Positions 1,461 to 62,421 of a DNA stretch of 64,000 nucleotides are shown here, in pieces. The notes under the pieces are model-generated. The model ran no database searches. It was given only the letters and a program-made list of their open reading frames with translations, and was not told the DNA's origin. The position numbers and the translations under genes are program-made. Source of the DNA: Eledone cirrhosa (lineage: Eukaryota); assembly GCA_964016885.1 (NCBI GenBank), contig OZ024758.1, forward strand, positions 24,118,001-24,182,000, given 5' to 3'. Numbering within the stretch: position 1 is the first letter of the stretch; each line of letters begins with the position of its first letter.

Positions 1461-1586
1461 ATCATTTTACGATCGTTTCTGGGATGTATGTGTGTTGGTA
1501 TGTATATCATAAATATATGTAAAAATATTACAAATTATCTGAGGAAATATACATACCTTCACATATACATGCCATCCTCATATATA
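1461..1586 (-). ncRNA. Degenerate hammerhead ribozyme with very long stem II (same family as 12751-12896)
   Basis: Minus strand reads aTGAGGA-tggCatgtatatgtg...cacacatacatCcca-GAAA-CGATCG-TA. C3 of the core is lost next to (TA)n. Inner helix ggtatgtatat/atatacatacc. Confidence 0.6.
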
Positions 1587-1628
1587 TAATATATTAACAA
1601 ATGGAAACTATATTTATAAAACCATATT

Positions 1629-1694
1629 TATTTTATTATACATATTTCAAGGGCCACCAAGGCAAATTATGGTGCGCTTTCATCAGATAAAATA
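1629..1694 (-). ncRNA. Type I hammerhead ribozyme (Penelope pLTR-like family)
   Basis: tattttat-CTGATGA-aagCgcacca..tggtggcCctt-GAAA-tatgta-TA/ataaaata. Stem I is a perfect 8 bp. Predicted cut between 1637 and 1636. Confidence 0.85.
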
Positions 1695-1888
1695 CAATAC
1701 AATTTGTTGAATCCCAACAAATTAAATATAACCTGTGCATATATATATATATATATATATATATATATATATATATGCGCGTCTGTGTGAGAGAGTCTCG
1801 GGCTCAATTGGGGGTAACCACAGCTAGTAAATGAATTCTAGTCCTGTAAAATTCATTTCTATATCAAACTTTATATATATATATATAT

Positions 1889-2202
1889 AATGTTTCTTAT
1901 ATAGACACAGGGCCAGCAATTGTGGTGCAGGGGAAAGTCGATTAAATCGACCCCAGTGCGTGACTGGTACTTTATTTTATCGACCCCAAAGGATGAAAAG
2001 CAAAGTTAACCTCGGCGGGATTTGAACTTAGAACTTAAAGAGCCATGACTCTGTCGCAAAGCATGGTGTCTGACACTCTACTGCTTCTGCCAAATTGTCT
2101 AATAATTGTTTCTACTTTTGGCACAAGGCCAGCAATTAACCCAGTGTATTACGTAACTCTTTGCTGCAAAGCATGGCGTCTGACCCTCTACCGATACTGC
2201 CT
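1889..2202 (-). mobile_element. tRNA-derived SINE family 1: one near-full copy and one internally deleted copy
   Basis: Reverse complement of the consensus seen at 35518-35708 (B box GTTCAAATC, conserved ...GGGGTCGATAAAATAAAGTACC core). Confidence 0.85.
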
Positions 2203-2336
2203 AATAATAAAATGATGATTTGTTATGTTTTCATTATGTTTATATATATGCAAAAGGCAAACAGAAATTGTAAAGCAAACGACAGAGTACAATGAAGAAA
2301 TATATTAGTTTAACGCTTGAAATAGCAGGAAGTGAG

Positions 2337-2372
2337 TCTTAACGTTTCGGGCACTAGTCTTTCATCAGAAGA
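2337..2372 (-). ncRNA. Minimal hammerhead ribozyme (no loop 3, palindromic ACGU)
   Basis: tctt-CTGATGA-aagactagtgccc-GAAA-CG-TT/aaga. Stem II is imperfect. Homologous to 47382 and 63943. Confidence 0.6.
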
Positions 2373-2670
2373 TAGAGTGAGAAATAGAAGATAAATAGAA
2401 AGTAAAGAGTAATGAGAGGAAGACACGGGGGAAATGGTGAGGGGGGGGAGAAACGTACGTATTAAGTTGGCCATCTTGGATATATATATATATATATATA
2501 TATATATACACACACACACACATATATATACACATACATATATACGTATATATATTCCCCTCCACCCCACCCCCGATCCAATCCCCCCCACTTTTTTATA
2601 ACTTCTATTTTCCCCTTTATTTTCTCTTTCATGTTTTATTTAAATATATTCTTTCTCACTACCCCTCCCC

Positions 2671-2703
2671 CTCCTGATGAAGGGCTTATGCCCGAAACGT
2701 CGC
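2671..2703 (+). ncRNA. Minimal hammerhead ribozyme core
   Basis: CTGATGA-a-gggc-ttat-gccc-GAAA-CG-TC. Stem II is perfect, but stem I is decayed to about 1 bp. Confidence 0.6.
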
Positions 2704-3281
2704 AACCACTCCCCCCACTCTCACTAAGCGTGAAACTAATAATATTTGTAACATTTACTCCTGCGTTTGTCTGTTTTTTGTTTTCTGATATCCCGAACTA
2801 TATATATATATATATATATATATATTATATATATATATATATATATATTATATATATATATATAAGTATGTACACGTACATACATATATGTATACAGACG
2901 TACAGTAGTATGTATATATATACATACATGCACACATATATATATATGTACGTATGGATTCACCGAACATTTATAATACTCGGTGTGTTTGTAAACAAAC
3001 ATCCCGTATTAAGCCGTAGTGTCTGTATACATATATGTATGTACGTGTATGTACTTATATATATATATATATTATATATATATATATACATACTACTGTA
3101 CGTCTGTATACATATATGTATGTACGTGTACGTACTTATATATACACATACATATATGAATACAGATATACAGTAGTATGTACGTGTACATACTTATATT
3201 TAAGTAACAGCCGTACTAAGAGTGGGAAATGAAATTTCGTTTCATTTTTTCCGTTTATATATATATATATATATATATATG

Positions 3282-3385
3282 TGAAAAAGTTTGTCCTCAT
3301 CAGTGGCCTTCCAACCGTCGTAGGCATTTCGTCGCATTAAATGCCTACGACGGTTGGAAGGCCACTGATGAGGACAACTTTTTCA
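3282..3385. repeat. Near-perfect inverted repeat with ~47-bp arms next to (TA)n
   Basis: gtcctcatcagtggccttccaaccgtcgtaggcattt / aaatgcctacgacggttggaaggccactgatgaggac. A related non-palindromic copy lies at ~52965-53045 (minus). Confidence 0.9.
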
Positions 3386-58598: not shown

Positions 58599-58649
58599 AG
58601 ATTCCTGATGATTTCTAATGAATGAAACAGTTCTAGTCCTGTAGAATCT
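58599..58649 (+). ncRNA. Type I hammerhead, right arm of palindrome
   Basis: agattc-CTGATGA-tttctaatgaat-GAAA-cagttctagtcctg-TA/gaatct. Confidence 0.78.
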
Positions 58650-58652
58650 TAT

Positions 58653-60270
58653 CTATATATATATATATATATATATATATGCATACACACACATATATAT
58701 ATATATATATATATATATATATATATATATGCATACACATATATATATATATATATACATGCATGCATACACATATATATATATATATATACATGCATAC
58801 ACACATATATATATATATATATATATGCATACACATATATATATATATACATATATATATATATGCATACACATATATATATATATATATACATATATAT
58901 ATATATGCATACACATATATATATATATATATATATATATATATATGCATACACATATATATATATATATATACATATATATATATATGCATACACATAT
59001 ATATATATATATATATATATATATATATGCATACACATATATATATATATATATACATATATATATATATGCATACACATATATATATATATATATACAT
59101 ACACATATATATATATATATATGCATACACATATATATATATATATATATATATATATATATATATATATGCATACACATATATATATATATATATATAT
59201 ATATATGCATACACATATATATATATATATATATATATATATATATATATATATATATATGCATACACATATATATATATATATATATATATATATGCAT
59301 ACACATATATATATATATATATATATATATGCATACACATATATATATATATATATATATATATATATATATATGCATACACACATATATATATATATAT
59401 ATATATATATATATATATATATGCATACACATATATATATATATATATATATATATATATATATATATACATACACATATATATATATATATATATATAT
59501 ATATATATATACATACACATATATATATATATATATATATATATACATACACATATATATATATATATATATATATATACATACACATATATATATATAT
59601 ATATATATATATATATATACATACACATATATATATATATATATATACATACACATATATATATATATATATATATATATATATATATATGCATACACAC
59701 ATATATATATATATATATATATATGCATACACATATATATATATATATATATATATATATATATGCATACACATATATATATATATATATATATATATAT
59801 ATATATATGCATACACATATATATATATATATATATATATATATGCATACACATATATATATATATATATATATATATATATATATGCATACACATATAT
59901 ATATATATATATATATATATATATATATGCATACACATATATATATATATATATATATATGCATACACATATATATATATATATATATATATATATATGC
60001 ATACACATATATATATATATATATATATATATGCATACACATATATATATACACATACATATATACATATATATGCATACACACACATATATATATATGC
60101 ATACACATATACATATATATGCATACATATATATATATACATATAACTACATATATGTATATAAATCTACATATATATACATATAAATACATATATGTAT
60201 ATATACATATAACTACATATATGTATATAAATCTACATATATATCCATATATATACATATAAATACATAT
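58653..60270. repeat. (TA)nTGCATACACA satellite
   Basis: Direct reading. Confidence 0.95.
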
Positions 60271-60533
60271 AGCGAAGGAGTTGTGGTAAGGAACCAGATG
60301 GACCATAAGCACCAGAGTACTCAATACTTAGGGTAGTGGAGTGGGTAATAGAAAAAAGTATGACCCCGACGGGGTCATACTTTTTTCCTATAAATACATA
60401 TATGTATATAAATCCATATATATATCCATATATATATATACATATAAATACATATATCTATATAGACATATACATTTAAATACATATATACATGTATATA
60501 TACATACATATATATATACATACATATATACGT

Positions 60534-60750
60534 GGAGGCGCGTGGCTTAGTTGTTAGAGAACTGGATTCACAATCGTGAGGTTGTGAGTTCGATTCCTGG
60601 ACTAGGCGATGCGTTATGTCCTTGAGCAAGACACTTTATTTCACGTTGCTCCTTCTACCTGGAGTTGCGACCGATAGATAGTATTAGCAATTGGAAAGAC
60701 CAATGGAAACATTGTTTCCTCGGTCCGATTTGACGAAAGTTGATCGACTG
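60534..60750 (+). mobile_element. SINE family 2
   Basis: Near-identical to 32001-32213. Confidence 0.85.
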
Positions 60751-60918
60751 TCGATACATATATATACATATATACAAGTAATGTATTCTAAGATGAAGAT
60801 ACTTATATAAATGTGAAGATGTAATTTGCCAAGAACCTTCTTATATATCCTGCTATGTATTCTGTTATAAATCACTTGAAGTATAATCACATTACGTTTG
60901 TATTCACATTATAGTTTT

Positions 60919-61081
60919 TGGCGGTGGATTGGCAGTATCGGTAGAGGGTCGGACGCCATGCTTTCCAGCATAGTTACGTCCCTTTATGATCTGAGTTCAA
61001 ATCCCGCCGAGGGTCGATAAAATAAAGTACCAGTAATGCACTGGGTATTTGCTGGCCTTGTGCCTAAAGTAGAAACAATTA
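60919..61081 (+). mobile_element. SINE family 1 with internal deletion and target-site duplication
   Basis: attatagtttttggcgg is repeated on both sides. Confidence 0.88.
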
Positions 61082-61683
61082 TAGTTTTTGGCGGGCTTAA
61101 TTCCGATACTTTTTATAGCTTGTAGATATTTTAATGGTGTATTCATCTAATTTGCAACTACACTTCATTTGGTTCCTGAAGTATACTATATAGATATGTG
61201 TAGTTTGTGAGTTTTTACTGGGTGTTCTGTCTGTAGGTGAATTTGTGGTTCTGTTTGTTCTGCTCTATGGCCTACTCATCTATCCAGGAGTACGTTATCA
61301 ACCCTTAAATCTAGGAATGTATAATTAACCCTTATGAATGAATCTTGTCTTTAAAAAAGTATATTTATTTGTTGAAACATCCGAACTTATTCAGCCTTTA
61401 TATACAATACATGCATATATATATTGTATTTTATATAAATCTTGTATTTTATCTGAAATTTTGGTACCCTTGAAATATATATAATAAAATAAATATGGTT
61501 TTATAAATATAGTTTCTATTTATTAATATTGATATTATACTCCAAAAACCTGTAGAGTGCTCCGAATCTGTTATAAATAAATTTGTTGAATAACCAACAA
61601 ATTAAATATCTCTTTGCTTATATATATATATATATATATATATATATATATATATATACAAATTAATATAAATTAATATATGA

Positions 61684-61945
61684 TAAACACTAATACAAGT
61701 ATATAAGTGTTTGTATTACAAATGACCAACTTAGCTAGATTGAAAAATACTAATTAAATTAATACAGTTTGCCTGTCTCGATTTAAAATAATAAATCAAT
61801 AAAAACAAACCTATATTGGCAATTTTTATTGATTTATTATTTTAAATCGAGACAGGCAAACTGTATTAATTTAATTAGTATTTTTCAATCTAGCTAACTT
61901 GGTCATTTGTAATACAAACACTTATATACTTGTATTAGTGTTTAT
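61684..61945. repeat. ~125-bp-arm inverted repeat (family also at ~22480-22740)
   Basis: Arms are near-perfect reverse complements. Confidence 0.88.
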
Positions 61946-62360
61946 ATTAATTTGTATTTCACGGCTCAGAAATATCTCTTTCTTTGAGCTATTTAATTGT
62001 AAAAGACTGTTTGAGTTTATAACTCTATATATAGTATATATATATATATATATATATATATATATATATAGTTAATATGGAAACGGCTTCTACAGGACCA
62101 GAACTGTTTCATTCGAAGTAAATTATCAGGAAAGTCATGTAGAAACCATTTCTATATTAAATATTTATACTCTGCCATGTATTGAGTACCTTACTGTGGT
62201 TACCCCCGGTTGAACCTGGGAATACACACATGTATACGTACAGCGGTAGTCCTAGAGAAAGAATAAAAAAAAAATTTTAAAAAACATATATATATATATA
62301 TATATATATATATATATAAATGATATTAATAAATGGACACTATATTTATAAAACCATATT

Positions 62361-62421
62361 TATTCTATTATATATATTTCAAGGGTACCAAAACTGTGGT
62401 ACGCTCTCATCAGATAAAATA
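62361..62421 (-). ncRNA. Type I hammerhead, left arm of inverted repeat 62319-62691
   Basis: tattttat-CTGATGA-gagCgtacca..tggtacCctt-GAAA-tatata-TA/atagaata. Confidence 0.87.

What the first reader, a model, noticed from the sequence alone, without database searches (positions are those of the whole stretch)
1461..62421. Invariant C-C mismatch at position 4 of stem II across divergent long-stem hammerheads
Seen: in 12 copies the fourth pair of stem II is C opposite C while the three basal pairs vary, mostly compensating: aagC/Cctt (1629, 51308), ggaC/Ctct (3791), ggtC/Cacc (4618), gagC/Cctt (5038, 62361), gggC/Ctcc (11329), aggC/Ccct (31617), tagC/Cctt (32477), aggC/Cctt (51478), tggC/Ccca (1461), cggC/Ccta (12751). 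Established: natural hammerheads use tertiary contacts between stems I and II, and type I forms lack loop 1. Inference: the C-C may be a conserved tertiary-contact, metal or protein-binding site that defines a hammerhead subclass. I do not know whether it has been described.
Basis: partly seen in the sequence, partly recalled or inferred. Interest (0 to 1): 0.8.

Follow-up and report, generated by a model that had tools for sequence, protein, structure and literature searches.

The report
Unpaired C marks jumping-gene hammerhead ribozymes
About 100,000 copies of a Penelope-type jumping gene in this animal genome carry a hammerhead-shaped RNA in which one C in a side stem stays mismatched and, across families, is as unchanging as the catalytic core; it is likely a contact point that helps switch the predicted self-cutting RNA on.

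Summary
All 12 copies show C opposite C at the fourth position of stem II, and a 13th was missed. Genome-wide, 69,327 of about 74,700 hammerheads of the main class keep C·C. Six families were tied to Hydra-clade Penelope-like retrotransposon ORFs, with endonucleases only 42–50% identical between the distant ones. Across 18 families C10.4 never changes and position 11.4 changes once; the other 14 stem II columns change 3–8 times and 50 flank columns 2–11 times. Simple descent is therefore unlikely. The title needs refining: the invariant is an unpaired C10.4. Its partner is U in a 22,478-copy family and A in a subfamily of about 230 copies. No amplified family of this group has G there, but separate low-copy long-stem families pair C-G. 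The motif is absent from 26 published Hydra-clade hammerheads and 19 metagenome hits. Function is untested. Most likely it is a contact for the element's protein; stem I docking is the main rival. Verdict: new variant of a known kind, interest 0.6.

The parts
1460..1589 (-). Type I hammerhead, long branched stem II (95 nt), family L1; core 5' end damaged; C10.4 at 1571, C11.4 at 1483
1629..1694 (-). Type I hammerhead, family A; C10.4 at 1676, C11.4 at 1652; predicted cleavage after 1637
3791..3857 (-). Type I hammerhead, family F; C10.4 at 3839, C11.4 at 3814
4615..4675 (+). Type I hammerhead, family E; C10.4 at 4633, C11.4 at 4652
5038..5098 (-). Type I hammerhead, family D; C10.4 at 5080, C11.4 at 5061
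11364..11441 (-). Degenerate hammerhead (A6 changed, TA expansion at the 3' side); C10.4 at 11423, C11.4 at 11387
12749..12897 (+). Type I hammerhead, long branched stem II (114 nt), family L1; C10.4 at 12767, C11.4 at 12874
31617..31682 (+). Type I hammerhead, family B; C10.4 at 31635, C11.4 at 31659; followed by the pLTR tail
32477..32537 (+). Type I hammerhead, family D-like with U·U first pair; C10.4 at 32495, C11.4 at 32514
51308..51372 (-). Type I hammerhead, family C, left arm of an inverted pair; C10.4 at 51354, C11.4 at 51331
51478..51542 (+). Type I hammerhead, family C, right arm of the inverted pair; C10.4 at 51496, C11.4 at 51519
62361..62421 (-). Type I hammerhead, family D; C10.4 at 62403, C11.4 at 62384
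63401..63466 (+).

Best explanation
These are type I hammerhead motifs in the terminal repeats of a high-copy group of Hydra-clade Penelope-like retrotransposons, in which C10.4 of a long stem II is kept mismatched; it is likely a specific handle for the element's own reverse transcriptase-endonuclease protein, which would help fold and license a predicted weak, dimer-dependent ribozyme. Shown: hammerhead core, covarying stems I and II, a self-complementary minimal stem III, placement at element ends, family-level invariance of C10.4 and tolerance of C, U or A opposite it. Computed: the mismatch costs about 4-7 kcal/mol in most families and loosens the three core-proximal pairs. Inferred: selection acts over many rounds of transposition, not on single insertions; the free C is read by protein; the loosened stem base keeps the RNA off until assisted. 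Confidence that the unpaired C is selected is about 0.85; the number given is for the protein-handle mechanism.
For: Invariance: C10.4 0 changes, 11.4 1 change over 18 families, against 3-8 for the other 14 stem II columns and 2-11 for 50 flank columns. Depth: validated hammerhead-ORF links for families A, B, C, E, F, Q give 42-50% endonuclease identity between E, F, Q and A/B/C, and 59-63% RT identity between Q and A/B/C. Partner tolerance: U in 98 of the first 100 listed Q copies (22,478 matches); A in a distinct subfamily, 65 of the first 100 of 360 non-U matches by hand count. C-G versions: 609 matches (control 74); the first 100 rows are scattered single copies of many families plus an old separate family. 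Folding: placing G at 11.4 lowers the minimum free energy by about 4-7 kcal/mol in 14 of 18 families, so the mismatch is kept at a cost. No invariant base outside the core could serve as an RNA partner. Literature: an anole Penelope hammerhead cleaves only when the element's protein is added (PMC11167929), and minimal Penelope hammerheads cleave poorly in vitro (PMC4209133).
Against: No binding, cleavage or probing data. No RNA cover was found (1 RNA run, nothing laid). The proteins have diverged to about 50% while the C has not moved, which suits an RNA-RNA contact just as well. Long-stem families M and N pair C10.4 with G and family O has A-U; M's RT is 41-43% identical to A/B/C/Q and whether it is an outgroup or a reversal is unresolved. 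Only two family-level changes at 11.4 were seen, so 'never G' rests on few events. Copies with the pair closed were inserted at least once: both arms share it at G000:C1:82592742/82595516. G8 core mutants show the same. Non-C at 11.4 (2,369) outnumbers non-G at catalytic G8 (942), though the patterns differ in strictness and sequence context. Twelve of the 18 families have no validated ORF link.
Confidence: 0.42

Rival explanations
1. RNA tertiary docking site: with loop 2 pushed far out by the long stem II, the mismatched C10.4 replaces the usual loop contact and receives the 3' strand of stem I (A1.6/U1.7), aligning stems I and II for catalysis without protein.
For: In canonical hammerheads a U next to residue 1.6 contacts the loop just beyond a short stem II (PMC2553840, passages), about the same height on stem II. 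A1.6 and U1.7 change only twice each over 18 families while their pairing partners change 5 and 7 times. The site outlasts 50% protein divergence.
Against: A1.6/U1.7 are also present in families M, N and O, which lack the mismatch. They are Watson-Crick paired in several families and are not invariant (U1.7 in 15 of 18). The canonical contact needs an unpaired A, whereas 11.5 here is a paired pyrimidine. The genome is AT-rich, so A and U are the easy letters.
Confidence: 0.3
2. Generic weak point: any mismatch near the base of a long stem II is kept to stop the hairpin being too stable for reverse transcription, or to attenuate cleavage; C is incidental.
For: About 4-7 kcal/mol destabilisation in most families. 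Partner base drifts among C, U and A. Several window copies are broken or inverted at stem II. Families N and O have other mismatches one or two pairs further out.
Against: Position and 5' base are fixed in 18 of 18 families while neighbours turn over; a generic weak point could move or change letter. Family M has an unbroken stem.
Confidence: 0.17
3. No function: the two C's are inherited from one ancestor, or are a DNA-level motif unrelated to RNA structure.
For: All copies are related retrotransposons. Single copies lose the C's with a transition-rich spectrum like neutral decay. The tree behind the parsimony counts has weak support.
Against: 0 of 64 other stem II and flank columns have one change or fewer. 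Flanking pairs covary. Spacing between the two C's varies from 26 to 116 nt of stem II. N7 varies, so an upstream start codon is not conserved and no coding constraint applies.
Confidence: 0.11

Closest known systems
Hammerheads of Hydra-clade Penelope-like elements (Craig et al. 2021, PMC8557442, section 11 and supplementary File S2)
   Same: Type I core at the element's 3' repeat, palindromic stem III, frequent U·U first pair, no extra nucleotide in most; host ORF has the DKT, RW-type, CxCx5C and GIY-YIG features; insertion in (TA)n.
   Different: Published rows have short or fully paired stem II; 0 of 26 rows have C mismatched at position 4 and 16 of 26 have C10.4-G11.4 (my reading). Here stem II is 26-116 nt with a fixed unpaired C10.4.
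Minimal hammerheads of metazoan Penelope-like elements (Cervera and De la Peña 2014, PMC4209133)
   Same: Type I, larger than usual helix II, tiny palindromic helix III implying dimers, many sequence families per genome with compensatory changes.
   Different: They have an extra nucleotide between 9 and 10.1 and no conserved internal mismatch. Of 56 representatives, none has C·C at the fourth pair and one sea-urchin sequence has C·A (my reading).
Canonical full-length hammerheads (Schistosoma Sm-alpha, sTRSV; PMC2553840)
   Same: Same catalytic core; a conserved feature about four pairs up stem II, where stem I crosses.
   Different: There a loop caps a short stem II and an A-U Hoogsteen pair links the stems. 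Here the helix continues past the site and no such A exists.
Poseidon element of Anolis carolinensis (Frangieh et al. 2024, PMC11167929)
   Same: Penelope-type element with a hammerhead and a 3' tail; precedent for a protein-assisted hammerhead.
   Different: Different clade; there the protein-binding region was mapped only to the first 172 nt of the ORF, and no stem II mismatch is mentioned in the parts read.

Membership tests
Type I hammerhead ribozyme | Conserved core CUGANGA / GAAA / UH | tested here: met
   11 of 13 window copies intact; invariant over 18 families
Type I hammerhead ribozyme | Three helices, open end in stem I, covariation | tested here: met
   8 of 13 pairs change on both sides, 0 of 500 shuffles reach the score
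Type I hammerhead ribozyme | Match to an Rfam hammerhead model | tested here: not met
   0 matches at gathering score in the window; only the best 150 of 415 weak matches were shown and none was a hammerhead
Type I hammerhead ribozyme | Self-cleavage after H17 | not testable with these tools
   No assay; only contigs available and no RNA cover
Penelope-like element hammerheads | Location in terminal repeats of RT + GIY-YIG elements, tandem or inverted | tested here: met
   L031, L035, L037, L038 and others; links checked base by base for A, E, Q and by two agreeing copies for F; not shown for 12 of 18 families
Penelope-like element hammerheads | Minimal palindromic stem III (dimer-type) | tested here: met
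   Six-nucleotide self-complementary or wobble-complementary inserts in all 18 families; dimer activity itself untested
Penelope-like element hammerheads | Extra nucleotide between A9 and 10.1 (Cervera 2014 consensus) | tested here: not met
   Absent in the long-stem families; present in the window's short-stem copies
Hydra clade of Penelope-like elements | DKT in place of DKG; RWK-type N-terminal motif | tested here: met
   DKT in L122, L037, L038, L232, L234; RWR or RWI rather than RWK in L038, L232, L234
Hydra clade of Penelope-like elements | CxCx5C linker, C-terminal GIY-YIG without CCHH, CxxC and CxH motifs | tested here: met
   Linker in families A, B, C, E, F, Q; endonuclease end read in L122
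Hydra clade of Penelope-like elements | Insertion in (TA)n | tested here: met
   Many copies end in TA runs; not counted
Hydra clade of Penelope-like elements | Phylogenetic placement with the published Hydra consensus proteins | not tested
   Published proteins were not on hand as files; tree used unnamed homologues only
Canonical hammerheads with loop-loop or loop-bulge contact | Unpaired A at the end of loop 2 pairing with U1.7 | tested here: not met
   Position 11.5 is a paired pyrimidine in 16 of 18 families

The most novel reading that the evidence does not exclude
A lineage of Penelope-like retrotransposons has turned the hammerhead into a protein-gated ribozyme: the usual C10.4-G11.4 pair was opened so that a single exposed C is read by the element's reverse transcriptase-endonuclease, coupling RNA cleavage to assembly of the transposition complex. 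This would be a defined protein-recognition nucleotide in a natural hammerhead, present in about 100,000 copies.
Probability: 0.3. Interest if true: 0.8.

Novelty: new variant of a known kind. Interest (0 to 1): 0.6.

Why it matters
Why Penelope-like elements keep hammerheads that barely cleave in vitro is an open question. One element's hammerhead needs the element's protein, but the RNA determinant is unknown. A single non-core nucleotide that is as fixed as the catalytic core, with natural C·C, C·U, C·A and C-G variants in one genome and young copies with open 745-residue frames, makes that question testable with point mutants. It could also reveal a new way of docking stems I and II when stem II is long.

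Tried and rejected
Rfam: no hammerhead hit. RNA evidence: one RNA run with a 0.05 word share, nothing laid; two other runs cover the element as contigs only; no support either way. Viral contigs: 0 of 60 pattern matches form the structure. Earlier scan findings: none in three look-ups. Wrong links withdrawn: the ORFs first assigned to families I (L159), K (L195) and E (L138) belong to other insertions. The trees, the clade test and the RT-tree row therefore say nothing about these families and are not used. Search for a K ORF in 20 more loci found none; K copies share over 2.2 kb of upstream sequence without an ORF hit. Families G, H, I and J stay unlinked to an ORF. Coding constraint rejected (N7 varies). 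Escape of C·C from DNA mismatch repair considered from recall and rejected: it explains neither the fixed position nor the C·U and C·A families. Pfam finds no domain in the element's ORF. Family tallies include copies drawn on purpose from mutant lists, so its commonest pair for H and L2 (C·U) is a sampling artefact; natural C·C copies were used. Thirty-six of 240 hammerhead-like hits were left unassigned.
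Full report
OBSERVATION. The window is 29% G+C and rich in TA repeats. A structure-aware scan found type I hammerheads with a long stem II on both strands. All 12 cited copies have C opposite C at the fourth position of stem II, and a 13th lies at 63401-63466. Two of the 13 have a damaged core. In 10 aligned copies the two C columns are the only invariant stem II columns. Five of six basal positions change on both sides, the fourth is unpaired in 10 of 10, and the covariation score beats 500 of 500 shuffles. 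These sequences are related, so the shuffle count is not a probability.

GENOME-WIDE COUNTS. For hammerheads with the main loop III class and a 26-38 nt stem II, 69,327 have C at both positions (reversed control 1), 3,189 lack the 5' C and 2,369 lack the 3' C. About 7 of the first 100 rows also appear, so the total is near 74,700 and about 93% are C·C. By hand count of the first 100 rows, departures at the 5' C are about 61 T, 16 G, 16 A and 7 indels or chance; at the 3' C about 56 T, 18 A, 15 G and 10 other. They are scattered over families, like decay after insertion. Patterns that did not specify position 4 found more families. Family K has C·C in 78 of 81 listed rows (7,918 matches in that search, control 171). 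An older K-related family has C at 11.4 in about 91 of 100 rows (553 matches). The long branched family seen at window 1461 and 12751 also keeps C·C.

THE INVARIANT IS C10.4, NOT C·C. A sister family Q (22,478 matches, control 5) has C at 10.4 in 99 and U at 11.4 in 98 of the first 100 rows. Among 360 Q-class matches without U, 65 of the first 100 belong to one distinct subfamily with C·A, including inverted pairs over 3 kb apart; that is roughly 230 copies. A paired C-G was found in 609 matches (control 74); the first 100 rows are single copies from many families plus an old separate family. Other long-stem families lack the mismatch: N (14 of 100 rows) and M have C-G and O has A-U. So within the group the rule is C10.4 opposite anything but G, resting on two family-level changes.

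WHAT THE ELEMENT IS. The hammerheads flank ORFs in inverted or tandem arrangement. [quoted passage not shown] This matches the description of the Hydra clade of Penelope-like elements (PMC8557442, section 11). Family B is young: 150 scored matches at 97-100% identity, several in open frames of about 745 residues. The best named protein relative is from Argonauta hians at 40%, so the host is probably an octopus or close cephalopod (inference). I checked the links between hammerheads and ORFs. Those for A, B, C, Q, F and E (endonuclease only) hold; those first made for I, K and a second E locus were wrong and are withdrawn with the trees built on them. With valid links, E, F and Q are 42-50% identical to A/B/C in the endonuclease and Q is 59-63% identical in the RT. 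The link for M is plausible; its RT is 41-43% identical to the others, and its place relative to E and F is unresolved.

MORE THAN DESCENT. With one natural copy for each of 18 families, parsimony gives 0 changes at C10.4, 1 at 11.4, 3-8 at the other 14 stem II columns and 2-11 at 50 flank columns; only the catalytic core is as fixed as C10.4. The tree is weakly supported and M, N and O were left out of this count by design. The main-class count above has no such circularity, since all families of that class enter it. Position 10.5 is always a purine and 11.5 a pyrimidine. Placing G at 11.4 lowers the minimum free energy by about 4-7 kcal/mol in 14 of 18 families and raises pairing of the basal stem. 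Against strictness: G8 mutants number 942, fewer than the departures at either C, although those patterns also admit indels and C10.4 often sits in a CpG. Both arms of some inverted pairs share a closed pair or a dead G8, so neither feature seems needed for one round of insertion; gene conversion between arms is an alternative.

MECHANISM. Shown: core, helices, palindromic stem III, location, invariance, partner tolerance. Inferred: cleavage as dimers, as reported for other Penelope hammerheads (PMC4209133; PMC6765202 passages). The fixed base and position with a drifting partner point to a free C being read by something. No invariant RNA partner exists outside the core. A1.6 and U1.7 are fairly conserved, but they are also present in families without the mismatch. 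An anole Penelope hammerhead cleaves only with the element's protein (PMC11167929). I therefore favour a protein handle with built-in attenuation (0.42) over stem I docking (0.30), a generic weak point (0.17) and no function (0.11).

COMPARISON AND NOVELTY. None of 26 Hydra-clade rows in File S2 of PMC8557442 has a mismatched C at position 4 and 16 have C10.4-G11.4 (my reading). None of 56 representatives in Figure S3 of PMC4209133 has C·C there and one has C·A. Among 33 metagenome loci with related endonucleases, 19 hammerhead-like hits in 16 loci include none with the mismatch. Nine full-text searches listed no paper on it. Seen: PMC4209133 parts 1-2 of 4 and supplement parts 1-2 of 3; PMC8557442 passages, section 11, supplement parts 1-2 and searches; PMC11167929 parts 1-2 of 4; passages of PMC7229834, PMC6765202, PMC3088659 and PMC2553840; bioRxiv 10.64898/2026.07.22.740005 part 1 and passages, without its supplements. 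Figures are not visible, and Lünse et al. (RNA Biol 14:1499) was not available, so a prior description there cannot be excluded.

VERDICT. A real, selected and apparently undescribed feature of a lineage-specific hammerhead variant in Hydra-clade Penelope-like elements; function untested. New variant of a known kind; interest 0.6.

Noticed in passing
window 2674 (+), 2368 (-), 47413 (-), 63974 (-): Short-stem minimal hammerheads with the extra nucleotide after A9 and a paired C10.4-G11.4: the classic Penelope type, in the same window.
   Followed up: partly
window 26004-27189 (+): A short-stem hammerhead-like motif upstream of a 5'-truncated Penelope-type ORF with a GIY-YIG domain (Pfam E 5e-5) and a CxxxxCxxC linker; a different clade from the C10.4 elements.
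   Followed up: partly
window 15831-17327 (+): About 500-residue non-LTR reverse transcriptase frame (RVT_1, E 1e-30) between TA arrays.
   Followed up: no
window 3880-3970, 61440-61490, 62560-62650: Hammerhead copies broken, deleted or inverted within or next to stem II, as if reverse transcription stalls or switches template there.
   Followed up: no
window copies at 1629, 4615, 5038, 31617, 32477, 51308, 51478, 62361, 63401: An AATAAA lies within 14 nt after the predicted cleavage site in 9 of the 13 copies; may be a poly(A) signal or AT-rich chance.
   Followed up: no
L062, L082, L102, L104, L166, L081, L168, L076, L192, L199: Many further long-stem hammerhead families without the mismatch, some with stem II of 83-97 nt and longer loop III palindromes: an unusually diverse set in one genome.
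   Followed up: no
L133 (G000:C1:24254900-24258400), L348, L355: Family K copies share over 2.2 kb upstream with internal duplications and no ORF hit; either a very long 3' untranslated region or a non-autonomous element.
   Followed up: partly
window 1460-1589 and 12749-12897; L204, L175, L176: Family L has a 95-116 nt branched stem II with a C·A first pair and still keeps the C·C.
   Followed up: partly
G000:C1:247073514/247078402 and others: Both arms of inverted pairs share a dead G8, suggesting that core-dead RNA was inserted at least once.
   Followed up: partly
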